From: Escherichia coli
Lineage (GTDB): Bacteria > Pseudomonadota > Gammaproteobacteria > Enterobacterales > Enterobacteriaceae
Length of the DNA stretch: 64,000 bases
Direction: 5' to 3' (one strand)
NCBI RefSeq assembly: GCF_044324785.1
Contig: NZ_CP172127.1
Shown: in pieces, positions 2,239-62,821 of the stretch
How positions within the stretch are numbered: position 1 is the stretch's first letter
Layout of the letters: each line of letters starts with the position of its first letter
Notes under the pieces: generated by a model
Databases searched by the model: none
What the model was told of the DNA's origin: nothing
What the model saw: the letters and a program-made list of their open reading frames with translations, nothing else
Position numbers and translations under genes: made by a program

Positions 2239-5034
<2,796 letters not shown>

Positions 5035-34442: not shown

Positions 34443-35663
34443 GTGGTTGCTGAAAACCAGCCTGGGCACATTGATCAAATAAAGCAGACCAACGCGGGCG
34501 CGGTTTATCGCCTGATTGATCAGCTTGGTCCAGTCTCGCGTATCGATCTTTCCCGTCTGGCGCAACTGGCTCCTGCCAGTATCACCAAAATTGTCCGTGA
34601 GATGCTCGAAGCACACTTGGTGCAAGAGCTGGAAATCAAAGAAGCGGGGAACCGTGGCCGTCCGGCGGTGGGGCTGGTGGTTGAAACTGAAGCCTGGCAC
34701 TATCTTTCTCTGCGCATTAGTCGCGGGGAGATTTTCCTTGCTTTGCGCGATCTGAGCAGCAAACTGGTGGTGGAAGAGTCGCAGGAACTGGCGTTAAAAG
34801 ATGACTTGCCATTGCTGGATCGTATTATTTCCCATATCGATCAGTTTTTTATCCGCCATCAGAAAAAACTTGAGCGTCTGACTTCGATTGCCATTACCTT
34901 GCCGGGAATTATTGATACGGAAAATGGTATTGTACATCGCATGCCGTTCTACGAGGATGTAAAAGAGATGCCGCTCGGCGAGGCGCTGGAGCAGCATACC
35001 GGCGTACCGGTTTATATTCAGCATGATATCAGCGCATGGACGATGGCTGAGGCCTTGTTTGGTGCCTCACGCGGGGCGCGCGATGTGATTCAGGTGGTTA
35101 TCGATCACAACGTGGGGGCGGGCGTCATTACCGATGGTCATCTGCTACACGCAGGCAGCAGTAGCCTCGTGGAAATAGGTCACACGCAGGTCGACCCGTA
35201 TGGGAAACGCTGTTATTGCGGGAATCACGGCTGCCTCGAAACCATCGCCAGTGTGGACAGTATTCTTGAGCTGGCACAGCTGCGTCTTAATCAATCCATG
35301 AGCTCGATGTTACATGGACAGCCGTTAACCGTGGACTCATTGTGTCAGGCGGCATTGCGCGGCGATCTACTGGCAAAAGACATCATTACCGGGGTGGGCG
35401 CGCATGTCGGGCGCATTCTTGCCATCATGGTGAATTTATTTAACCCACAAAAAATACTGATTGGCTCACCGTTAAGTAAAGCGGCAGAAATCCTCTTCCC
35501 GGTCATCTCGGACAGCATCCGTCAGCAGGCCCTTCCTGCGTATAGTCAGCACATTAGCGTTGAGAGTACTCAGTTTTCTAACCAGGGCACGATGGCAGGC
35601 GCTGCGCTGGTAAAAGACGCGATGTATAACGGTTCTTTGTTGATTCGTCTGTTGCAGGGTTAA
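34443..35663 (+). CDS. mlc: ROK-family global repressor Mlc (DgsA), GTG start
   Basis: ORF 406 aa (MVAENQPGHIDQIKQTNAGAVYRLIDQ...), recognised Mlc; first codon GTG. Confidence 0.93.
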   Translation: MVAENQPGHIDQIKQTNAGAVYRLIDQLGPVSRIDLSRLAQLAPASITKIVREMLEAHLVQELEIKEAGNRGRPAVGLVVETEAWHYLSLRISRGEIFLALRDLSSKLVVEESQELALKDDLPLLDRIISHIDQFFIRHQKKLERLTSIAITLPGIIDTENGIVHRMPFYEDVKEMPLGEALEQHTGVPVYIQHDISAWTMAEALFGASRGARDVIQVVIDHNVGAGVITDGHLLHAGSSSLVEIGHTQVDPYGKRCYCGNHGCLETIASVDSILELAQLRLNQSMSSMLHGQPLTVDSLCQAALRGDLLAKDIITGVGAHVGRILAIMVNLFNPQKILIGSPLSKAAEILFPVISDSIRQQALPAYSQHISVESTQFSNQGTMAGAALVKDAMYNGSLLIRLLQG

Positions 35664-54881: not shown

Positions 54882-55055
54882 TATCGCGCCCTCAACAATG
54901 AGTTTTGTGATGCGGTGCCTGGTGCCTCCAGGTGACGTTAACCAGTTAACAATTAACGCCGGATACAGAGAATCCACCCATAACACTGTTTTTGGTTTTA
55001 ACTGTTCCGCGTGCGCTCAGCCGCATTCACCACATCACAAAATTCACTTTAAAAA

Positions 55056-55108
55056 GGGCGGCAGAGCAGTCACGGAGTAAAACTGATACCGCCAAACGTC
55101 ACCAGAAA
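55056..55108 (-). ncRNA. dicF: DicF small regulatory RNA
   Basis: Minus strand reads TTTCTGGTGACGTTTGGCGGTATCAGTTTTACTCCGTGACTGCTCTGCCGCCC followed by TTTTT; recognised DicF with 3' GC hairpin. Confidence 0.88.
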
Positions 55109-55448
55109 ATTGATAACAGAGGGCGTTGCAGCGGGGTTGTCACTTAAGCGTATGGTCAACCTGACAACCCGGTGTCCTCAACGGGGAAGGAATAACCCCG
55201 CCATACTTACCGCCGCGCCATTTCGCGGGTTGCCACAACCGGAAGCGCACGGTCGACGAAAATTTAACGACAGGCTATCTATGAACCAGCTACCTCGCCG
55301 TGCGCTTTCGCGTTATGGTCTGACTTTTCAGGGAAATATCCTTTCAGTAAACTGTCAGTGCCGGATGCTCACCCGTGTCCGGCGCACGCACTCCACCTCA
55401 CCCGTGGAGAACTCCTTAATTACCAACCTTAGCTTCGTTGGTTAGCTA

Positions 55449-55667
55449 TTAACGCGGGTATGTAATCATTCTGGCAATGCTTAATGCCGCTGCTTTTTCC
55501 AGATTGGTGATATCCTGCTCCAGAGAGAACAGATTTTCAGCCTGCTTAGCCCTGGCTTCATTAGCCCATTTCAGATCCTGCGCTGCATTAATTTTCTGGT
55601 GCATCCACTCATAAAGTTCATCATCGGTATAGTCTGGCGCGATGATAACGGGTTCTCGTTTCTGCAT
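55449..55667 (-). CDS. ydfC: prophage small protein, YdfC-like
   Basis: 72-aa ORF between ydfB and dicF; assigned by size and position in the dicB operon. Confidence 0.6.
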   Translation of the reverse strand: MQKREPVIIAPDYTDDELYEWMHQKINAAQDLKWANEARAKQAENLFSLEQDITNLEKAAALSIARMITYPR

Positions 55668-55697
55668 ACTGATTCCTTGCGGTGCTGTTTCGCTTAT

Positions 55698-55826
55698 CAG
55701 CCGTTAGATTTTGCCGAACTGGAAAGCGCCTGTTTAAATTCGCTGAAGCTGAGAGCTTCTTCGCCTTCGGCAAGGCCTTCGAAGTATTCTTCGTAAGCCT
55801 TTTCCATGATTGTGTCGAAATCCATA
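55698..55826 (-). CDS. ydfB: prophage small protein YdfB
   Basis: Not in ORF track (42 aa): MDFDTIMEKAYEEYFEGLAEGEEALSFSEFKQALSSSAKSNG; starts right after ydfA stop. Confidence 0.7.
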
Positions 55827-55982
55827 TCACCCACCTGAATTTCTTTCCAGCCAGCGACGCGCTCCAGATTCGGTTTTAAACGTTTTGCTTTTGGTATACG
55901 TCATTGCGGTGAACGTGCCGTCCTGGTTTGGAAACACGCCGTACACCAGAGATTCGTTGTTGCCAAGATCGATAGTATCCAT
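55827..55982 (-). CDS. ydfA: prophage small protein YdfA (DUF1391)
   Basis: Start at internal Met MDTIDLGNNESLVYGVFPNQDGTFTAMTYTK... giving 51 aa; first gene after dicA. Confidence 0.75.
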   Translation of the reverse strand: MDTIDLGNNESLVYGVFPNQDGTFTAMTYTKSKTFKTESGARRWLERNSGG

Positions 55983-56095
55983 GCTGACCTCATTTCCCCT
56001 TAACGCCGGGGTAGCGGAACTGTTTGCTGAGAACACCGTGCGGTGTCTTGATGGAAAATAATTTAGAATAACCTAACATGAGAGGCAAGTGTTTT

Positions 56096-56113
56096 TGTTA
56101 GATTGATCTAACA
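56096..56113. promoter_or_regulatory. Operator-like palindrome TGTTAG-N6-CTAACA in the dicB-operon promoter region
   Basis: TGTTAGATTGATCTAACA with flanking T5/A5, between dicA stop and ydfA start. Confidence 0.6.
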
Positions 56114-56149
56114 AAAAGGGTGGGCGCAACTAATCACTTGAAAAGAATG

Positions 56150-56557
56150 TTATTTTATTGATTTATTTTTACGCGCTTTAAGCATTTCTTCGAAGAGTTT
56201 GTTGAAGTTTTCTACTCTTGCGCGCATTTCAGACAGCAAGGCTTCCTGCTCGGAAGATGGAAGAGCATCGAATAATTCGATCAATTCTTTGTGGTTGGGA
56301 GTTAGCTCTGTTTCCACATGAAGTTCTTGTGCAGGCACTGGTGCCTTGTCTTCGTCACCAAACATTAGCCATGTAGGTGAGCACTTCAGAGCATCCGCTA
56401 AAGCAAACAATCGTTTTCCGACTGGCTGGGTTTCGTCTCTTTCCCATTGTGAAATTGTGACGTGAGCAACTCCAGCGAGGCGCGCGGCTTCTCGTTGTGT
56501 TAAGCGTAATTCTTTTCGTCGCGCCAGAACTCGCTGGCCCAGGGTTCTTGTATCCAT
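56150..56557 (-). CDS. dicA: HTH-XRE repressor, DicA-like (cI-type)
   Basis: 135-aa ORF with N-terminal HTH (LRLTQREAARLAGVAHVTISQWERD); same length and architecture as DicA but diverged from the K-12 sequence as I recall it. Confidence 0.8.
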   Translation of the reverse strand: MDTRTLGQRVLARRKELRLTQREAARLAGVAHVTISQWERDETQPVGKRLFALADALKCSPTWLMFGDEDKAPVPAQELHVETELTPNHKELIELFDALPSSEQEALLSEMRARVENFNKLFEEMLKARKNKSIK

Positions 56558-56579
56558 AGTTAGGTAATTCTAATTTTTC

Positions 56580-56624
56580 TTGACTTAGGTATCCCGCGCA
56601 CAATAATGTTAGAAAAGTCTAACA
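56580..56624 (+). promoter_or_regulatory. Putative dicC promoter (-35 TTGACT, 16-17 bp, -10 AATAAT) overlapped by operator TGTTAG-N6-CTAACA
   Basis: Hexamers and the palindrome TGTTAGAAAAGTCTAACA at 56607-56624 read directly; a weaker third site GTTAG-N6-CTAAT at 56559-56576 overlaps dicA start. Confidence 0.55.
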
Positions 56625-56634
56625 AGAGGGGGAT

Positions 56635-56865
56635 TTGATGCTTAAAGTTGACGCAATTACTTTTTTTGGCAGCAAAACAAAGCTTGCCAATGCCGCAGGA
56701 GTGAGGCTGGCAAGTGTTGCTGCTTGGGGGATACTGGTTCCTGAAGGTCGCGCGATGCGTCTACAGGAGGCATCTGGCGGGGAGCTTCAGTATGATCCCA
56801 AAGTTTATGATGAATATCGTAAGACGAAGCGGGCGGGGCGGTTGAACAATGAAAATCACTCCTGA
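56635..56865 (+). CDS. dicC: Cro-like regulator DicC
   Basis: 76-aa ORF divergent from dicA (MMLKVDAITFFGSKTKLANAAGVRLASVAAWG...). Confidence 0.75.
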   Translation: MMLKVDAITFFGSKTKLANAAGVRLASVAAWGILVPEGRAMRLQEASGGELQYDPKVYDEYRKTKRAGRLNNENHS

Positions 56866-57370
56866 ACAGGCTCGTGAGGCTCTGGATGCCTGGATATGTC
56901 GACCAGGAATGACACAGGAGCAGGCGACGATATTAATCACTGAAGCATTCTGGGCTTTGAAAGAGCGCCCGAACATCGATGTTCAGCGTGTCACAGATGA
57001 AGGTGGCGCGGTTGATCAGCGAGCGCTTGGTGTTAATCGAGTGAAGATATTCGAACGCTGGAAGGCTATCGACACCAGGGATAAGCGTGAAAAGTTCACG
57101 GCGCTAGTGCCTGCGATTATGGAGGCTATCCGGATTAGTGATTTCAGGTTGTATCGTGAAATTACTGACGGAAAAAGCATCACGTGCATGATCGCCGGGT
57201 TAAACAAAGAATATGGCGATGTGGTGGAGTCCGGACTGCTTTTTGCTGATCCTGCCGTAGTGGATCGTGAAACTGACGAACTTATAGAAAAAGCAATTGC
57301 TTTCAAGCTTGCGTATCGACAGCAATACCAACAAAAAGCTGGATGGAATTATGAGCCTTCTTTTTGCTGA
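56849..57370 (+). CDS. hypothetical prophage protein at the cII-equivalent position (possibly YdaT-like)
   Basis: 173-aa ORF whose ATG overlaps the dicC 3' end; no recognisable motifs. Confidence 0.5.
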   Translation: MKITPEQAREALDAWICRPGMTQEQATILITEAFWALKERPNIDVQRVTDEGGAVDQRALGVNRVKIFERWKAIDTRDKREKFTALVPAIMEAIRISDFRLYREITDGKSITCMIAGLNKEYGDVVESGLLFADPAVVDRETDELIEKAIAFKLAYRQQYQQKAGWNYEPSFC

Positions 57371-58316
57371 ACGCCCACTGGTTATAAACACGCAGCTGGC
57401 AATGAAAATTGGCTTAAACGAAGCCATTGTTTTGCAACAACTGCACTACTGGTTGAGAGATACCAACTCCGGCATGGAATGTGATGGTGTTCGCTGGATT
57501 TATAACACAACGGAACAATGGCTGGAACAGTTCCCATTCTGGTCAGAGTCAACGTTAAAGCGCGCGTTTGCAAGTCTGAAAACGCTGGGGCTTTTGCGTT
57601 GTGAAAAGCTCAATAAATCAAAGCGCGATATGACCAATTTCTACACGATCAACTATGGGAGCGAGCTTTTAGATGGTGGCAAATTGAGCGAATCCATCGG
57701 TTCAAAATGCGCCGCTCCATCAGGTCAAAATGACACGATGGAAGAGGTCAAAATGAAACGCTCCATTGATTCAAAACGACCCAATGTCATCGGGTCAAAA
57801 TGGCCTGATGATCTTACAGAGAATACAACAGAGATTACTACAGAGAATAAAAACACTTTTCGTCCGGAAGCTTCGCAACCGGACCCGCAGACGACTGAAC
57901 AGGATTTTTTAACCCGGAACTCCGACGCGGTTGTGTTTAGTGCGAAAAAACGCCAGTGGGGTAGCAGGGAGGATTTGGCGTGTGCGCAGTGGATCTGGGG
58001 GCGGATCGTGGGTCTCTACGAACAGGCAGCCAGTGATGATGGCGAGATCATGCGACCAAAAGAGCCTAACTGGACTGCCTGGGCCAATGACGTGCGCACA
58101 ATGCGGATGCTGGATGGCAGAAGCCACAGACAAATTTGCGAAATGTTTGGTCGGGTTCAGCGAGATCCATTCTGGGTAAAAAACATCATGAGCCCGTCAA
58201 AGCTCCGCGAAAAATGGGACGAACTGGTCATCCGCCTGGGACGTTCACCTGTACAGCGTTGTGTTAATCATATTTCTGAACCGGATACAGAAATTCCGCC
58301 TGGTTTCAGAGGATAA
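57351..58316 (+). CDS. phage replication initiation / replisome organizer protein (lambda O-like) containing the origin iterons
   Basis: ORF track frame 57297..58316; likely start at MSLLFAERPLVINTQLAMKIGLNEAIVLQQLHYWL...; iterons and AT-rich tract lie inside the coding sequence. Confidence 0.7.
   Translation: MSLLFAERPLVINTQLAMKIGLNEAIVLQQLHYWLRDTNSGMECDGVRWIYNTTEQWLEQFPFWSESTLKRAFASLKTLGLLRCEKLNKSKRDMTNFYTINYGSELLDGGKLSESIGSKCAAPSGQNDTMEEVKMKRSIDSKRPNVIGSKWPDDLTENTTEITTENKNTFRPEASQPDPQTTEQDFLTRNSDAVVFSAKKRQWGSREDLACAQWIWGRIVGLYEQAASDDGEIMRPKEPNWTAWANDVRTMRMLDGRSHRQICEMFGRVQRDPFWVKNIMSPSKLREKWDELVIRLGRSPVQRCVNHISEPDTEIPPGFRG
57699..57802 (+). repeat. Replication origin iterons: five direct repeats of GGT(T)CAAAATG at 22-25 bp spacing, followed by AT-rich tract 57810-57855
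   Basis: Repeats at 57699, 57723, 57746, 57768 and 57793, then ACAGAGAATACAACAGAGATTACTACAGAGAATAAAAACACTTTT. Confidence 0.7.
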
Positions 58317-58356
58317 GTGTTGATTTCAGGTCATGAGGTAATTTTAAGGGGGACTT

Positions 58357-58779
58357 GTGGCAAAAGTTTTTACACAAGAAGAGCGGGAAAAAATTAAATG
58401 GCAGGTGGTGGAACTCGTGCGCCAGAGCGGCCGTGAGACGTTACGGCAACTGGAAGCTAAAACAGGTGCGACTAGATATCTGATGAGCGTTCTTGCCAGA
58501 GAGCTGGTAGCCAGTGGCGATGTATACAACTCCGGCTACGGGTTATTCCCCTCTGAACAGGCGCGTAAGGACTGGCAAAACGCCCGCAAAAAACTCTCGA
58601 GGGCAAAGGTGAAGAAACCTGCTGTGGTTGATCCGGACCTTATCTGGTCATCACCTGACGGAGAAATACGTCGCTACGACAGTCGCCTAAACATAATCTG
58701 TCGCGAGTGCCGGAAGAGCGAAGTTATGCAGCGCATACTGGCTTTCTATCAGGGTAATTTTCAGGACGTGGCGCAGTGA
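58357..58779 (+). CDS. hypothetical prophage protein
   Basis: 140-aa ORF, basic, Cys pair CRECRK near C-terminus; no family recognised. Confidence 0.5.
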   Translation: MAKVFTQEEREKIKWQVVELVRQSGRETLRQLEAKTGATRYLMSVLARELVASGDVYNSGYGLFPSEQARKDWQNARKKLSRAKVKKPAVVDPDLIWSSPDGEIRRYDSRLNIICRECRKSEVMQRILAFYQGNFQDVAQ

Positions 58780-59222
58780 GTGCACCGGCAACCATTCTTG
58801 ATATGTGCTGTGGCAGCCGCATGTTCTGGTTCGATAAGTCTGACGAACGGGCGATATTTAGCGATATCAGAAAAGAAGGATACACATTACGCAATGGGAG
58901 ACGCTTGATTATCAGCCCTGACATTATCGCAGATTTTCGTGCATTATCATTTGCAGACGCATCTTTTTCGATGGTTGTATTAGACCCTCCGCATCTTGAG
59001 CGTGTTGGTGATAACGCCTGGATGGGAAAGAAATATGGACGGCTGAATAAAGATGCCTGGCGTGATGATTTGCGACAGAGATTTAAAGAAGCTTTTCGGG
59101 TGTTGAGGCCGCACGGCGTTCTGATTTTTTAATGGAATGAAACGCAAATACCGGTAAGCCAGATTCTGGCACTGACAGATAGAAAGCCTGTTATCTGTCA
59201 ACGAACAGGGAAAAAACGATAA
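58776..59222 (+). pseudogene. putative SAM-dependent DNA methyltransferase interrupted by an in-frame TAA
   Basis: Motifs ILDMCCGSR and VVLDPPH; TAA at 59130-59132 after ...VLIF, then 29 more in-frame codons (WNETQIPVSQILALTDRKPVICQRTGKKR) before a second stop. Confidence 0.5.
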
Positions 59223-59394
59223 AACCCACTGGATTATTTTTATGAAAGAGGCATCCAGTGAGTAGATTCGTAAGGTTACAGATACGTATATCTGAATAAT
59301 TAAATTCAGTTCTGTAAATAAAACTTAATCCTTAACCGGATGGATTTCTGCACCCTCAGAACATCAGGAGGCCGCCCGAAAGGGCGGTAGTGAA

Positions 59395-60030
59395 ATGCGA
59401 AAGTTCAAAATTATTATTGAAACGGGAATAGCTGGTGGAGATTTTGAGGATGTATTCGAAGTGGACGATGACGCAACACCTGATGAAATTCATGACGGAG
59501 CATAAGAAATTTTCTTTAACTACTGCAATTACTCATACCACGAAATAAAAGACGATGAGGAAGAACAAAGTGGCTGATTTTTGTTCAGCTAAATATAACA
59601 TCAGTTTTGAAGAGCGGGATGAACTATTAATGGACTATGGTGAGTTACGCGGTGGAAGTGCTGCTGATGTCGAATCCTAGCGTGATGACTATGAAGCGGG
59701 AAAAACTCCGGTCGAAGCATATTGTGAGGAGTGGGGCGATGAATGAGCGAGATTAATTATCAGGAAGGGCATGAAACGGCGGGGCAAGCAAAACCAGTGA
59801 CATGGCGATATCGCTACGTGAAAAAAGGCGTTACGGACTTTCAGGGGAAGTAGTGGTCTGGTGACTGGAAATATGTACCGAAAAAAGAGGATTGTAACGA
59901 CAGGCCGAACTATCAAATTCAGGCCTTATTCACTGCCTCACCAGTCCCGGTTACATCAGAAGAATTGGTTAAAGCTGTGCACTTTTATGAACAACTAAAA
60001 CGCGAAAATCCACCAACATCCGGCAACTAG
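59395..60030 (+). pseudogene. cluster of short ORF fragments in shifting frames, likely decayed prophage gene(s)
   Basis: Successive 15-60 codon ORFs separated by stops and frame changes (MRKFKIIIETG..., MRKNKVADFCSAKYNISF..., MSEINYQEGHETAG..., ...KYVPKKEDCNDRPNYQIQALF...). Confidence 0.4.
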
Positions 60031-60284
60031 ATTAATGGGTTAACTATGTCGGTTAAACGACCAGCCAACTGAAAAAGCGGAAACCTGATTACAGGTTGCC
60101 AGATAAGGCAATGAGCTACCTGGCGCGGAACGGACTGATAAGTATGGGGAATGTTTTACGATGAACCTTTAGACTAAAGAGTTTGTAACGCTATGTAAGT
60201 GATTTTTTCTGGTTTAGATATTTATATGTCCGGCCAAATTGAGGTGTGTTTAAATGTAATTGCACATTGATTGTAGGAGGAATA

Positions 60285-60464
60285 ATGAAAAACGCATTGC
60301 AGTTTTTGTTTGTTGCGTTCTGGTTGTTCGCATCATGTATGCCCATCATCTTCACAGCAAGGTATATGGAAAAAGTTGATGTTTTGATATTAATATTTGG
60401 ATATATAAATGCCCTTTTTTTAGGGGTGTTCATGGCGGTCATGTGCATTGAATACTGGCGGTAA
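60285..60464 (+). CDS. unrecognised 59-aa two-helix membrane protein
   Basis: ATG preceded by consensus AGGAGG at 60275-60280 (4-nt spacer); product MKNALQFLFVAFWLFASCMPIIFTARYMEKVDVLILIFGYINALFLGVFMAVMCIEYWR; AT-rich context. Confidence 0.55.
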   Translation: MKNALQFLFVAFWLFASCMPIIFTARYMEKVDVLILIFGYINALFLGVFMAVMCIEYWR

Positions 60465-60798
60465 ATACAGCGAACTCCATTGGTTTAGTTGGATATTTAC
60501 TGTGCTGGACAAAAACGGTTTGCGGGGAAATCTTAGTTAAGTAGAATGACTGCGGGTGCTTGAGGCTATCTGCCTCGGGCACGAACACCAACGGCAGGTA
60601 GAGAAAAGCCCCAGTTAACATTACGCGTCCTGCAAGACGCTTAACATTAATCTGAGGCCAATTTCATGCCAGACACATGTAGGTTAGCCTCTTACGTGCC
60701 GAAAGGCAAGGAGAAGCAGGCTATTGTTAACACCAAGCTGTAATGTCCCCTTTGAACCATTCTAAAATGTCCCCAGACAATTCTCTGGGGGATTTTTC

Positions 60799-61764
60799 AT
60801 GACCAAAGAAACTGTTACGATGAGTCATAAGGAACTCCACCGACTTCAGATTATTCAGGAGTCAATTAATCGACATATTACTCAGGAACAAGCTGCGGCA
60901 CGCATTGGCATTTCTATTCGGCAGGTTAAACGTCTGGTGCAACGGTATAGAAATGAAGGGCCTTCTGGTCTGGTTTCCCACCGACGTGGAAAGCGTCCTA
61001 ATAATTCCTTTTCTACTGAATTCAGAGCAACAGTAATTTTACTCCTCAAAGGCCGTTACGCTGATTTTGGACCTACGTTTGCGTGCGAAAAATTGCGCGA
61101 GATACACGGTTTATCTTTATCCGTTGAAACTCTCAGAAAGTGGATGATAGAAGAGGGGGGTATGGCGTGAACGCCGTCGTAAAATTGCCCGTATATATCA
61201 ACGCCGCATGCGACGACCATCTTACGGTGAACTGATCCAGATTGATGGCTCACCTCATGACTGGTTTGAAAATCGAGGCCCCAGATGTACACTGATCGTT
61301 TTCATTGATGATGCCACCAGTGCGTTGATGGCGTTGCGTTTTGTGCCTGCTGAAACAACCCGGGCTTACATGGAAACCCTCCGGGGTTACCTTAATGATC
61401 ATGGCGTACCGCTCGCTCTCTACTCTGATAGACACAGTATATTCAGGGTAAATAACCCAGAGCGGGAAGGTGAGCTGACCCAGTTCACTCGTGCGATAAA
61501 GACACTGGGCATCGAGCCAATCCATGCCAACAGCCCGCAGGCAAAAGGGCGGGTAGAGCGCGCCAATCAGACACTACAGGACAGGCTGGTCAAAGAAATG
61601 CGGCTTCAGAATATCAGTGATATTGAAACAGCAAATGCATGGTTGCCGACCTTTATTGAAGCCTATAACAACCGGTTCGCTACGTCGCCTCGTACTACTG
61701 ATAATGCTCATCTTGATGTGCACCATTCTGAAGAGGAACTGGGTTATATCTTCAGCCTACAGGC
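60799..61764 (+). pseudogene. IS481/ISNCY-like DDE transposase gene (HTH plus rve core), frameshifted at a G6 run and interrupted by IS903
   Basis: ORF 60799..61170 (HTH) and frame-shifted ORF opening at 61151 (…IQIDGSPHDWFENRG…RVERANQTLQDRL); frames would fuse if the G6 run at 61155-61160 were G5; coding sequence broken at 61764. Confidence 0.7.
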
Positions 61765-62821
61765 GGCTTTGTTGAATAAATCAGATTTCGGGTAAGTCTC
61801 CCCCGTAGCGGGTTGTGTTTTCAGGCAATACGCACGCTTTCAGGCATACCTGCTTTCGTCATTTTGTTCAGCGCTCGTACCAGGGCCATAGCCTCCGCAA
61901 CCTGACCATCGTAGTCACGCAGCGTCAGTGAACCCCCGAACAGCTGTTTTACCCGGTACATCGCCGTTTCCGCTATCGAGCGACGGTTGTAATCTGTTGT
62001 CCATTTCCACCGCGCATTACTCCCGGTCATTCGCTGATTAGCCACTGCACGGTTACGGTCTGCATATTCACCGGGCCAGTAACCCGCACCTTTTCGGGGA
62101 GGGATAAGCGCGCTGATTTTCTTACGCCGCAGTTCATCGTGACATAGCCGGGTATCGTAAGCGCCATCGGCGGCGGCTGACCTGATTTTCCGGTGGGTTT
62201 GCCGGATTAACCCGGGGAAGGCCTCTGAGTCCGTAACGTTGTTCAGCGACAGGTCAGCGCAGATGATTTCATGTGTTTTACTGTCAACGGCGAGATGCAG
62301 CTTACGCCAGATACGGCGGCGTTCCTGGCCATGCTTTTTGACTTTCCACTCGCCTTCACCGAAGACCTTCAGCCCGGTGGAATCAATTACCAGGTGTGCG
62401 ATTTCACCCCGGGTGGGCGTTTTGAAACTGACATTAACCGACTTTGCCCGCCTGCTGACACAGCTGTAATCCGGGCAGCGTAGCGGAACGTTCATCAGAG
62501 AAAAAATGGAATCAATAAAGCCCTGCGCAGCCCGCAGGGTCAGCCTGAATACGCGTTTAATGACCAGCACAGTAGTGATGGCAAGGTCAGAATAGCGCTG
62601 AGGTCTGCCTCGTGAAGAAGGTGTTGCTGACTCATACCAGGCCTGAATAGCTTCATCATCCAGCCAGAAAGTTATGGAGCCACGGTTGATGAGGGCTTTA
62701 TTGTAGGTGGGCCAGTTGGTGATTTTGAACTTTTGCTTTGCCACGGAACGGTCTGCGTTGTCGGGAAGATACGTGATCTGATCCTTCAACTCAGCAAAAG
62801 TTCGATTTATTCAACAAAGCC
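61765..62821 (-). mobile_element. IS903-type insertion sequence (1057 bp) with 9-bp target site duplication CCTACAGGC
   Basis: Terminal inverted repeats GGCTTTGTTGAATAAATC at both ends; identical 9-bp direct repeats at 61756-61764 and 62822-62830. Confidence 0.9.
61821..62789 (-). CDS. IS903 transposase (IS5 family)
   Basis: ORF 322 aa (…AKQKFKITNWPTYNKALINRGSITFWLDDEAIQAWYESATPSSRGRPQRYSDLAITTVLV…), recognised IS903/IS102 transposase; true start may be a few codons in. Confidence 0.88.
   Translation of the reverse strand: MKDQITYLPDNADRSVAKQKFKITNWPTYNKALINRGSITFWLDDEAIQAWYESATPSSRGRPQRYSDLAITTVLVIKRVFRLTLRAAQGFIDSIFSLMNVPLRCPDYSCVSRRAKSVNVSFKTPTRGEIAHLVIDSTGLKVFGEGEWKVKKHGQERRRIWRKLHLAVDSKTHEIICADLSLNNVTDSEAFPGLIRQTHRKIRSAAADGAYDTRLCHDELRRKKISALIPPRKGAGYWPGEYADRNRAVANQRMTGSNARWKWTTDYNRRSIAETAMYRVKQLFGGSLTLRDYDGQVAEAMALVRALNKMTKAGMPESVRIA

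What the first reader, a model, noticed from the sequence alone, without database searches (positions are those of the whole stretch)
57690..57860. Lambda-type replication origin (iterons plus AT-rich tract) embedded inside the replication gene
Five direct repeats of GGT(T)CAAAATG at 22-25 bp spacing lie inside the O-like gene and are followed by an AT-rich tract. At protein level they create the repeated SIGSK.../SIDSK.../VIGSK... segments. This is the classic lambdoid ori-within-O layout and suggests the replication module was functional until recently; no intact helicase-loader gene follows.
Basis: partly seen in the sequence, partly recalled or inferred. Interest (0 to 1): 0.45.

Follow-up and report, generated by a model that had tools for sequence, protein, structure and literature searches.

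The report
Phage replication origin inside initiator gene
The repeats are very probably the replication origin of a lambda-like E. coli prophage, sitting inside the gene of the protein predicted to bind it; this layout is classic, but this phage type has no helicase-loader gene and its initiator ends in a copy of the tail of the host restart protein DnaT.

Summary
Window 57672-57810 holds six abutting 23-bp units. Five are good and one is degenerate. Each is an imperfect palindrome of the form CATCnGGTCA-AAA-TGnCnnGATG. They are followed by GATC and three 12-mers (ACAGAGAWTAMW, 57815-57850), which form the least stable 40 bp of the gene.

The array lies in the part of a 321-aa O-like initiator gene (57351-58316) that encodes a predicted disordered linker. 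This is the same position as ori-lambda in gene O, and the C-terminal domain is homologous to that of lambda O. The core motif is read in all three frames. Relatives from Klebsiella, Hafnia, Staphylococcus, Bacillus and Stenotrophomonas phages carry arrays at the same place, and the array sequence changes with the N-terminal domain. The reading as a lambda-type origin is therefore supported, by sequence comparison only; no experiment was done.

The missing helicase loader is not evidence of decay. Isolated phages (HannyBb, mEp460, LLS, SfV, ST64B) have the same O-only module. All the O-only initiators from enterobacterial phages that I checked carry the motif [IV]P[PAE]GFR[GSN] found at the end of DnaT; it is C-terminal in all but Hafnia yong2. 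A 70%-identical relative that has a lambda-type end instead is followed by a lambda P gene.

The origin is a new member of a known kind. The tail-for-P swap is the more interesting lead, and it can be tested.

The parts
56580..56607 (+). pR-like promoter candidate (TTGACT-16-AATAAT) upstream of cro. It would drive transcription through cro, the cII-like gene and the initiator gene, and so across the origin, as in lambda.
   Evidence: Consensus scan, 10 of 12 matches. This is only a consensus match. The total number of such sites in the region is no higher than in shuffles.
56635..56865 (+). cro / DicC-like regulator gene
   Evidence: Pfam P22_Cro, E=5e-12. Annotated as DicC in RefSeq genomes.
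56849..57370 (+). cII-like (YdaT family) gene. It overlaps the initiator start codon by 20 nt.
   Evidence: PHROG 163 'CII-like transcriptional activator', E=2.6e-40; Pfam YdaT_toxin, E=5.6e-5.
57351..58316 (+). Initiator gene (321 aa, O-like). It has an N-terminal winged-helix-like domain (aa ~10-105), a disordered linker (aa ~110-180), a lambda-O-type C-terminal domain (aa ~183-297) and a DnaT-like tail.
   Evidence: PHROG 391, E=8.6e-92. 99.7% identical to the PhiR42_1 'DNA replication protein O'. AF2 domain map. Foldseek best hits are RepA_N-type initiator N-terminal domains and wHTH regulators, and they are weak (E 0.02).
57672..57694 (+). Iteron unit 0 (degenerate): GATGGTGGCA-AAT-TGAGCGAATC
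   Evidence: In 23-bp register with the others. It is a good copy in mEp460_4F5 and the Klebsiella phage.
57695..57717 (+). Iteron unit 1: CATCGGTTCA-AAA-TGCGCCGCTC
57718..57740 (+). Iteron unit 2: CATCAGGTCA-AAA-TGACACGATG (8 of 10 dyad positions)
57741..57763 (+). Iteron unit 3: GAAGAGGTCA-AAA-TGAAACGCTC
57764..57786 (+). Iteron unit 4: CATTGATTCA-AAA-CGACCCAATG. It carries a G-to-A change (Gly to Asp in the protein) relative to PhiR42_1, HannyBb and mEp460_ev081.
   Evidence: The same allele occurs in 3 IMG/VR contigs.
57788..57810 (+). Iteron unit 5: CATCGGGTCA-AAA-TGGCCTGATG (8 of 10 dyad positions)
57810..57853 (+). Putative DNA-unwinding element. A GATC site is followed by three tandem 12-mers (57815-57826, 57827-57838, 57839-57850). 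The top strand is A-rich.
   Evidence: Repeats. GC minimum 0.275. Least stable 40-mer of the gene. Nearly invariant (one A/G difference) down to the Klebsiella phage. Copy number is 3 or 5 among relatives. ACAGAGA-type repeats follow the iterons in Hafnia, Staphylococcus and Bacillus phages too.
57862..57884 (+). Short GC-rich dyad (GTCCGG-N11-CCGGAC) to the right of the A-rich tract. It includes the motif TCGTCCGG, which is shared with lambda (TTCGTCCGA) at the equivalent position.
   Evidence: Read directly from the sequence. This is weak: the arms are 6 bp, and the conservation may reflect the protein.
58254..58313 (+). Codons 302-321, QRCVNHISEPDTEIPPGFRG: the DnaT-like C-terminal tail
   Evidence: 14 of 20 residues identical to E. 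coli K-12 DnaT 160-179, pairwise E=9e-8; the similarity is confined to the tail.
58357..58779 (+). DUF977 / LygF gene. It is next downstream and is not a loader substitute.
   Evidence: Pfam DUF977, E=5e-29; PHROG 142 'Ren-like exclusion protein'. In locus L097 it is present together with a lambda P gene.

Best explanation
Window 57672-57853 is the vegetative replication origin of a lambdoid prophage, of the type found next to rspB at the Qin locus in related E. coli genomes. It is embedded in the linker-coding part of its own initiator gene.

Proposed mechanism, by analogy with lambda. After induction, transcription from the pR-like promoter produces the 321-aa initiator. Dimers of its N-terminal winged-helix-like domain bind the six abutting 23-bp dyad-symmetric units and assemble an O-some-like complex. 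The strain this creates opens the adjacent low-stability tract of three 12-mers.

Unlike lambda, this module has no P protein. Instead, the initiator's C-terminal domain and its 20-residue DnaT-like tail are proposed to recruit the host helicase-loading machinery directly. That machinery would be DnaB-DnaC, or whichever primosome partner the tail of DnaT contacts.

Shown here: the anatomy of the repeats; their DNA-level rather than peptide-level conservation; the homology to lambda O and the equivalent position in the gene; the change of array sequence with the N-domain; and the association of the tail with P-less modules.

Inferred, not shown: binding of the initiator to the units, unwinding at the 12-mers, the partner of the tail, and whether this particular prophage copy still fires.
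For: Anatomy and significance.

The constraint acts on DNA, not on the peptide. The same core is read in three frames. Among 58 distinct gene variants, 57771-57830 is the least variable 60 nt of the gene, and the third-codon-position bias of substitutions seen in the rest of the gene is lost across the origin.

Homologous position: the alignment to lambda O runs from the last iteron into the C-domain. The lambda iterons ATCCCTCAAAACGAGGGA share the central TCAAAAYG core and the ~20-24 bp spacing. The AF2 model has pLDDT below 50 over most of residues 113-179 (127-179 continuously), which is the part encoded by the origin.

Array sequence follows the N-domain (N-domain identities):
- N-domains 72-100% identical: GGTCAAAATG at 23 bp.
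- Hafnia (52% identical in the alignment): GGACAAAnTGTCC at 23 bp.
- Staphylococcus phage (46%): GGACAAAATGGCCC at 22-23 bp.
- Bacillus phage (39%): GTGTCAAAATGA at 23 bp.
- Stenotrophomonas phage (37%): GGGTAGGGnCCCTACCC at 22-23 bp.
- Unrelated N-domains have other arrays: 689R6 and LLS, GTCAAAATCTGA at 15 bp, with 689R6 sharing this C-domain; SfV and ST64B, GTGCAGGAGATTCAC at 21-24 bp.

The module occurs in phages deposited as isolated or induced: 96-99% identical in HannyBb, mEp460_ev081 and PhiR42_1.

Tail and P. All O-only initiators from enterobacterial phages that I checked carry [IV]P[PAE]GFR[GSN]; it is at the C-terminus in all except Hafnia yong2, where about 35 residues follow it. 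P0036 (70% identical, same neighbours, same origin) ends like lambda O and is followed by a Pfam Phage_lambda_P gene. Lambda-P homologues were found only in the two loci whose O lacks the tail (HK140 likewise).
Against: No experiment on this origin type was found in the searchable literature, so the case rests entirely on comparison.

The N-terminal domain has no Pfam match. Its fold assignment is weak (Foldseek E 0.02, target-normalised TM 0.49), and the model has a mean pLDDT of 66 from a 21-sequence alignment.

The 12-mers have a period of 4 codons and encode TENT/TEIT/TENK, so a protein-level contribution to their conservation cannot be excluded.

This copy has a G-to-A change beside the core of unit 4 and lies in a prophage with pseudogenes and IS elements downstream.

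The partner of the DnaT tail is not defined in the DnaT papers I read. The 80 IMG/VR loci are near-identical, so the independent lineages behind the tail/P association number about six P-less against three to four with a loader. O-only relatives from Bacillus, Stenotrophomonas and Vibrio phages do not carry the motif.
Confidence: 0.85

Rival explanations
1. The sequence is an origin by descent but is a dead relic here. On this view the prophage is defective and the origin or initiator no longer functions, which is the reader's 'functional until recently'.
For: Downstream of DUF977 there is a frameshifted methyltransferase, other pseudogenes, IS fragments and an IS5. Unit 4 differs by G-to-A from the three phage copies.
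Against: cI, cro, the cII-like gene, the initiator and DUF977 are all intact open reading frames. The initiator differs by one residue from PhiR42_1. The TCAAAACG core of unit 4 is untouched. Phage mEp460_ev081 itself carries a change inside the core of unit 1. PhiR42_1, deposited as a complete phage genome, has the same IS-bearing stretch downstream. The missing loader is normal for this module type.
Confidence: 0.25
2. The repeats are a peptide repeat or a low-complexity linker selected at the protein level, with no role as DNA.
For: Three units encode SIGSK / SIDSK / VIGSK. The 12-mers keep the reading frame and encode TENT/TEIT/TENK.
Against: The six cores are translated in frames 0, 2, 1, 0, 2, 2, giving unrelated peptides. 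The spacing of 23 nt is not a multiple of 3. Each unit is dyad-symmetric as DNA. The same DNA core at 22-23 bp spacing recurs in Staphylococcus and Bacillus phages whose peptides differ. The third-position bias of substitutions is lost across the array.
Confidence: 0.03
3. The array binds a protein other than the initiator, for example a regulator, a partition or packaging protein, or DnaA, and the true origin lies elsewhere.
For: Binding has not been tested. Arrays of dyad-symmetric sites are also used by repressors and partition proteins.
Against: The array is always inside the initiator gene at the domain boundary, and it changes with the N-domain of that gene and not with its neighbours. 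There is no DnaA box in or next to the array; the only match nearby is at 58368. The position is homologous to ori-lambda.
Confidence: 0.05

Closest known systems
ori-lambda in gene O of phage lambda (O-some, AT-rich tract, O-P-DnaB pathway)
   Same: An array of dyad-symmetric iterons at about 2-turn spacing lies inside the initiator gene at the boundary between the N- and C-domains, followed by an A-rich, easily melted tract. The central TCAAAAYG core is shared. The C-terminal domain is homologous (34% identity, E=1e-26). The operon order is the same: cI | cro - cII-like - O.
   Different: There are six 23-bp abutting units rather than four 19-20 bp units. The A-rich tract is three 12-mers. 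The N-terminal domain is of another family (no Pfam Phage_rep_O hit). There is no P gene. The protein ends in a DnaT-like tail, not the lambda O end ...TNTDWIYGVDL.
O-only ('one-gene') replication modules of lambdoid phages, e.g. phage LLS (Genome Res 2025, PMC12315714)
   Same: A single O homologue with no helicase or loader. The LLS O protein also carries in-gene iterons and ends in ...KIPEGFRG.
   Different: LLS has another N-domain, another C-domain and 15-bp-spaced iterons. The paper reports no experimental study of the replication of such phages and says their mechanism is not yet understood.
E. coli DnaT (primosomal protein I), C-terminal residues 160-179
   Same: 14 of 20 residues are identical, including SEPDxxIPPGFRG at the extreme C-terminus.
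   Different: There is no similarity outside the tail. The protein scores 16 bits against the NCBIfam DnaT cut-off of 201. It is not a DnaT homologue; it carries a short motif shared with DnaT. A DnaT C-terminal motif in an O-like protein (DopC) was noted before (PMC5509034).
RepA_N-family plasmid initiators of staphylococci (PDB 4pql, 4pt7, 5kbj) and the SPP1 G38P/oriL type of 'replisome organizer'
   Same: The best structural matches of the N-domain are RepA_N N-terminal domains. From my own knowledge, not tested here: these systems also place the iterons inside the initiator gene, between two domains.
   Different: The structural match is weak (E 0.02, TM 0.49), and there is no sequence-level match in Pfam.

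Membership tests
Lambda-type phage origin (iterons plus AT-rich tract inside the initiator gene) | Array of four or more direct repeats at about two helical turns, inside the initiator ORF | tested here: met
   Six units at 23, 23, 23, 23 and 24 bp, at 57672-57810. 0 of 1000 codon shuffles gave a chain longer than 2, and the chain is unique in the 64 kb.
Lambda-type phage origin (iterons plus AT-rich tract inside the initiator gene) | Each iteron has internal dyad symmetry (a dimer binding site) | tested here: met
   5-8 of 10 symmetric positions per unit, against a background of 2.5 +/- 1.4.
Lambda-type phage origin (iterons plus AT-rich tract inside the initiator gene) | AT-rich, low-stability tract directly on the promoter-distal side of the iterons | tested here: met
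   GC 0.275 at 57820-57859. 57814-57853 is the least stable 40-mer of the gene.
Lambda-type phage origin (iterons plus AT-rich tract inside the initiator gene) | Located in the segment that encodes the inter-domain linker, homologous in position to ori-lambda | tested here: met
   pLDDT below 50 over most of residues 113-179. The BLASTP alignment to lambda O starts at the last iteron. Lambda iterons lie at O codons ~117-145 and these at codons ~108-153, counted from the coordinates.
Lambda-type phage origin (iterons plus AT-rich tract inside the initiator gene) | Iteron sequence specific to, and changing with, the initiator's DNA-binding domain | tested here: met
   Twelve lineages were compared: the same array with N-domains 72% or more identical, graded change at 37-52% identity, and different arrays with unrelated N-domains even where the C-domain is shared.
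Lambda-type phage origin (iterons plus AT-rich tract inside the initiator gene) | Initiator binds the iterons, and the segment supports initiator-dependent replication | not testable with these tools
   This needs EMSA or footprinting and an ori-plasmid assay.
Lambda O protein family (Pfam Phage_rep_O) | N-terminal origin-binding domain matches the Pfam family | tested here: not met
   No Pfam-A family at E<=0.01. No N-terminal similarity to lambda O by BLASTP.
Lambda O protein family (Pfam Phage_rep_O) | C-terminal domain homologous to that of lambda O | tested here: met
   34% identity over 148 residues, E=1e-26. tblastn to lambda, 21, H-19B and Stx phages gives 36% identity, E=2e-16.
Lambda O protein family (Pfam Phage_rep_O) | Works with an adjacent P-type helicase loader | tested here: not met
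   The next genes are DUF977 and a methyltransferase pseudogene. There is no tblastn hit to lambda P in the window region 55000-62000.
PHROG 391 'replication initiation O-like' | Full-length match to the family profile | tested here: met
   E=8.6e-92; residues 17-321 against profile positions 11-298 of 298.
O-only lambdoid replication modules (PMC12315714) | One O homologue and no helicase or loader in the early-right operon; the module type occurs in phages deposited as isolated or induced | tested here: met
   The same gene order is found in HannyBb, mEp460_ev081 and PhiR42_1, and comparable order in 4F5, 689R6, the Klebsiella phage, Hafnia yong2, SfV, ST64B, WGPS2, the Citrobacter prophage and LLS.
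DnaT (primosomal protein I) | Match to the DnaT family model over its whole length | tested here: not met
   NCBIfam NF002770 gives 16.3 bits against a cut-off of 201, and only profile positions 160-179 match. BLASTP similarity is confined to the last 20 residues.
RepA_N-type initiator N-terminal domain | Fold match of the N-domain to solved RepA N-terminal domains | tested here: inconclusive
   4pql, 5kbj and 4pt7 are the top Foldseek hits, but with E 0.02-0.07 and target-normalised TM ~0.49. Generic wHTH regulators score about the same.

The most novel reading that the evidence does not exclude
The 20-residue C-terminal tail shared with host DnaT is a docking motif. On this reading it lets O-only lambdoid initiators recruit the host helicase-loading machinery directly, making a P-type loader unnecessary. 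The tail and the lambda-type C-end plus P gene would then be interchangeable cassettes.

The evidence does not exclude this and mildly favours it. The motif is present in every O-only initiator from an enterobacterial phage that I examined, across about six lineages with three different N-domains and two different C-domains, including LLS, which grows on K-12. It is absent from lambda, HK140 and a Staphylococcus phage initiator that are followed by loader or helicase genes. One 70%-identical relative (P0036, locus L097), in the same gene context and with the same origin, has a lambda-like end and a lambda P gene inserted before DUF977.

If true, this would also indicate what the uncharacterised tail of DnaT does in replication restart.
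Probability: 0.5. Interest if true: 0.7.

Novelty: new member of a known kind. Interest (0 to 1): 0.45.

Why it matters
The origin itself is a textbook layout, so the main value is a better description: unit boundaries, dyad structure, a candidate unwinding element and a specificity family. That family runs from E. coli prophages to Staphylococcus and Bacillus phages. Its proteins have no Pfam model and are mostly labelled 'hypothetical protein'.

The wider interest lies in helicase loading. A 2025 survey states that 34 of 314 lambdoid phages encode only an O homologue, that none of these has been studied experimentally, and that their replication is not understood (PMC12315714). The exclusive pairing seen here (DnaT-like tail with no P, lambda-like end with P) turns that open question into a concrete experiment of tail mutants, host dnaC/dnaT/priA/priB backgrounds and peptide pull-downs. 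It could also assign a function to the poorly characterised DnaT C-terminus.

A practical point follows. Absence of a loader gene should not be used to call such prophages replication-defective.

Tried and rejected
- First Pfam call used the wrong start coordinate and failed. The ATG is at 57351.
- Pfam and NCBIfam gave no family for the initiator. PDB sequence search gave only the DnaT tail.
- The search for related loci with an N-domain alignment returned only 97-100% identical IMG/VR relatives. These were useful for micro-variation but not for comparing distant N-domains. I got those from tblastn against phage genomes instead.
- Literature: 'initiator-solo' gave no hit for that term. The tail sequence (PPGFRG, PAGFRG) appears in no searchable paper on replication. 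No paper describing iterons of this family or of SfV, ST64B or mEp460 was found.
- The 2026 preprimosome paper and the 2014 DnaT crystal paper do not define what residues 154-179 of DnaT bind. The 2014 paper reports only a modest effect on cooperative ssDNA binding.
- DnaA-box search found none in the origin.
- DUF977/LygF as a hidden loader analogue is rejected, because it co-occurs with lambda P in L097.
- Peptide repeat as the explanation is rejected, because the core is read in three frames.
- I did not try to fold an initiator-tail/DnaC or DnaB fusion. The tool predicts single chains only, and without a paired alignment the result would not be interpretable.
Full report
CONTEXT

The window region is the early-right operon of a lambdoid E. 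coli prophage. The same 3.1 kb is 100% identical in many E. coli chromosomes, where the prophage sits next to rspB (the Qin locus) with this gene order:
- int, xis, a RecE-like exonuclease, ydfD, dicB, ydfABC;
- a cI-like repressor (56150-56557, minus strand);
- dicC/cro (56635-56865);
- a YdaT/cII-like gene (56849-57370);
- a 321-aa 'phage replication protein O' (57351-58316);
- DUF977 (58357-58779);
- then a frameshifted methyltransferase, pseudogenes and IS elements.

The module from cro to the methyltransferase is 96-99% identical in the phages PhiR42_1, HannyBb and mEp460_ev081.

THE OBSERVATION

The core TCAAAA(T/C)G starts at 57702, 57725, 57748, 57771 and 57795. A degenerate sixth copy (GCAAATTG) starts at 57679. 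That position holds a good copy in mEp460_4F5 and in a Klebsiella phage.

A chain of five 8-mers (at most 1 mismatch) at 22-24 nt spacing is found nowhere else in the 64 kb, and no chain longer than 2 appeared in 1000 codon shuffles of the gene.

Each unit is a 23-bp imperfect palindrome, CATCnGGTCA-AAA-TGnCnnGATG. The units abut head to tail from 57672 to 57810. Dyad matches are 5-8 of 10 against a background of 2.5 +/- 1.4.

A GATC site overlaps the end of the last unit (57810-57813) and three tandem 12-mers follow (57815-57850). This tract has the lowest GC of the gene (0.275) and is its least stable 40-mer.

DNA OR PEPTIDE?

The six cores lie in reading frames 0, 2, 1, 0, 2, 2 and give GKL, GSK, GQN, VKM, DSK and GSK.

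I compared 58 distinct variants of the gene. The stretch with units 4-5 and the first 12-mer is the least variable 60 nt. The strong third-codon-position bias of substitutions seen in the N-domain disappears across the origin.

The AlphaFold2 model is only moderately confident (mean pLDDT 66). It has a folded N-domain (about residues 10-105), a folded helical C-domain (about 183-297), and pLDDT below 50 over most of residues 113-179, which is the part encoded by the array and the 12-mers. The repeats therefore sit where the protein tolerates almost any sequence.

WHAT THE PROTEIN IS

There is no Pfam family. It matches PHROG 391 'replication initiation O-like' at E=8.6e-92. Residues 147-294 align with lambda O 135-270 (34% identity, E=1e-26).

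The alignment starts at the last iteron, so the array and the A-rich tract occupy the position of ori-lambda. The lambda iterons ATCCCTCAAAACGAGGGA (spacing 20, 24, 23) share the central TCAAAAYG core. In both phages the A-rich tract is followed by TTCGTCCG.

The N-domain is not the lambda type. Its relatives are initiators of Klebsiella (72%), Hafnia (48% by tblastn; 52% in the alignment), Staphylococcus (46%), Bacillus (39%), Stenotrophomonas (37%) and Vibrio (30-36%) phages. Its best structural matches are RepA_N-type plasmid initiator N-domains and generic winged-helix regulators, and these are weak.

COMPARATIVE TEST OF THE ORIGIN READING

Every relative I examined has an array at the same place in the gene, and the array tracks the N-domain.
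- mEp460_4F5, the Klebsiella phage and locus L097: GGTCAAARTG, six copies at 23 bp, plus the same three 12-mers.
- Hafnia yong2: GGACAAAnTGTCC at 23 bp.
- Staphylococcus phage StauST398-3: GGACAAAATGGCCC at 22-23 bp.
- Bacillus phage BMBtp2: GTGTCAAAATGA, five copies at 23 bp, followed by ACACAGAGAATACCAGAGACT, two copies.
- Stenotrophomonas StM171: GGGTAGGGnCCCTACCC at 22-23 bp.
- Vibrio 1.216.O: AGCCAAAnGGCT, two copies at 22 bp.

Initiators with unrelated N-domains carry different arrays. This holds for 689R6, which shares the window's C-domain, and for LLS, SfV and ST64B, whose C-domains differ:
- 689R6 and LLS: GTCAAAATCTGA at 15 bp.
- SfV and ST64B: GTGCAGGAGATTCAC at 21-24 bp, followed by AGAACCAGTCA, three copies.

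ACAGAGA-type repeats of about 12 nt follow the last iteron throughout the window's N-domain family. Their copy number varies from 3 to 5 among close relatives. This pattern of array sequence following the DNA-binding domain is what an initiator and its own binding sites should show.

THE HELICASE LOADER

It is not a sign of decay. The module is the same in PhiR42_1, HannyBb and mEp460_ev081. One-gene modules are also found in 4F5, 689R6, the Klebsiella and Hafnia phages, SfV, ST64B, Stx2a_WGPS2, a Citrobacter prophage and LLS.

A 2025 survey reports that 34 of 314 lambdoid phages have only an O homologue, that none has been studied, and that their replication 'is not yet understood' (PMC12315714).

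A LEAD ON HOW THESE MODULES LOAD THE HELICASE

The last 20 residues, QRCVNHISEPDTEIPPGFRG, are 14/20 identical to the C-terminus of E. coli DnaT ([20 protein letters not shown]). There is no similarity elsewhere in the two proteins.

The motif [IV]P[PAE]GFR[GSN] closes every O-only initiator from an enterobacterial phage that I checked, whatever its N- or C-domain. In Hafnia yong2 it is internal, with about 35 residues after it. It is missing from lambda and HK140 O, which have P, and from the Staphylococcus initiator, which is followed by a loader and a DnaB-like helicase. It is also missing from the Bacillus, Stenotrophomonas and Vibrio relatives, which also have no annotated loader gene after the initiator, so it is not universal outside Enterobacterales.

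The sharpest case is P0036 in locus L097. It is 70% identical and has the same neighbours (cI, cro, ydaT, then DUF977) and the same six iterons and three 12-mers. But its C-end is lambda-like (...DWNSADGWEDVL), and a Pfam Phage_lambda_P gene, 40% identical to lambda P, is inserted between the initiator and DUF977.

Across the 98 sequences searched (97 fetched loci plus the window region), lambda-P homologues occur only in the two whose O lacks the tail. This also shows that DUF977 is not a loader substitute.

A DnaT C-terminal motif in an O-like protein (DopC) was noted in 2017 (PMC5509034). What the DnaT tail binds is not established in the structural papers I read. The partner (DnaB-DnaC, PriA, PriB or ssDNA) is therefore open.

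STATE OF THIS COPY

The initiator ORF is intact. The only amino-acid difference from PhiR42_1 is Gly to Asp, caused by a G-to-A change next to the core of unit 4. The same allele occurs in three IMG/VR contigs. Phage mEp460_ev081 has a change inside the core of unit 1. A pR-like promoter candidate lies at 56580-56607. No DnaA box is in the origin. Sequence alone cannot say whether the origin still fires.

VERDICT

The interpretation as a lambda-type origin inside the initiator gene is supported by strong comparative evidence, though no experiment was done. The inference drawn from the missing loader should be dropped.

The origin is a new, apparently undescribed member of a well-known kind, and by itself it is ordinary. 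The exchange of the DnaT-like tail for a lambda-type end plus P is the part worth following up, because it makes a stated open question directly testable.

Noticed in passing
window 58254-58313 (initiator residues 302-321): The C-terminal 20 residues are 14/20 identical to the C-terminus of host DnaT, with no other similarity between the proteins. The motif [IV]P[PAE]GFR[GSN] ends all the O-only initiators from enterobacterial phages that I checked (internal in Hafnia yong2) and is absent where a P or helicase gene follows.
   Followed up: yes
L097 4001-5697 (Logan contig ERR10093472_1047): A 70%-identical initiator with the same origin and the same neighbours has a lambda-O-like C-end in place of the DnaT-like tail. 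It is followed by a lambda P homologue inserted before DUF977, which makes it a natural cassette swap.
   Followed up: yes
window 57768 (unit 4 of the array): G-to-A relative to PhiR42_1, HannyBb and mEp460_ev081 (GGTTCAAAACG becomes GATTCAAAACG; Gly to Asp). It is the only amino-acid difference from the PhiR42_1 initiator. The same allele occurs in three IMG/VR contigs.
   Followed up: partly
window 57815-57850; IMG/VR loci among L010-L089: The 12-mer ACAGAGAWTAMW is present in 3 copies here and in 5 copies (329-aa proteins, TENTTENTTENTTEITTENK) in two relatives. One relative has a deletion inside the array that truncates the protein at 144 aa.
   Followed up: partly
L091 2921-2962 (Bacillus phage BMBtp2), L090 2895-2935 (Staphylococcus phage), L006 2963-3000 (Hafnia phage): ACAGAGA-type repeats follow the last iteron in Gram-positive and Gram-negative members of this N-domain family. 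The Bacillus copy shares the exact 11-mer ACAGAGAATAC with the E. coli prophage. They might be a sequence-specific element of the unwinding region and not merely AT-rich DNA.
   Followed up: partly
window 57858-57867; L009 1500-1510 (lambda); L100 ~34665-34676 (LLS); L007 ~2795-2806; L005 ~3010-3020: The motif T(C/T)(G/T)TCCG(G/A) lies just to the right of the A-rich tract in lambda, LLS, 689R6, the Klebsiella phage and the window, although the flanking protein domains differ. In the window it is part of a small dyad, GTCCGG-N11-CCGGAC (57862-57884).
   Followed up: no
L091 2492-3307 (Bacillus phage BMBtp2 gp32): This initiator, an N-domain relative with no loader gene after it, ends in ...SEDIVLPF, which resembles the acidic C-terminal tip of bacterial SSB. 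It may be a Gram-positive counterpart of borrowing a host docking tail.
   Followed up: no
window 58776-59132 and 60799-62789: Downstream of DUF977 the methyltransferase gene is truncated or frameshifted (RefSeq marks it as a pseudogene in identical genomes). Then come an HTH/IS fragment (60799-61795) and an IS5 transposase gene (61821-62789, minus strand). This part of the prophage is decaying even though the replication module is intact.
   Followed up: partly
window 57351-57370: The initiator ATG lies 20 nt inside the end of the cII-like/YdaT gene, in another frame, which suggests translational coupling. The ORF listing extends the initiator ORF to a TTG at 57297, but all annotated relatives start at the ATG.
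   Followed up: no
proteins P0001, P0002, P0004: Some database entries are 448-aa products that combine a YdaT (PF06254) part with the full initiator. They are either fusion variants or gene-calling artefacts at the overlap.
   Followed up: no
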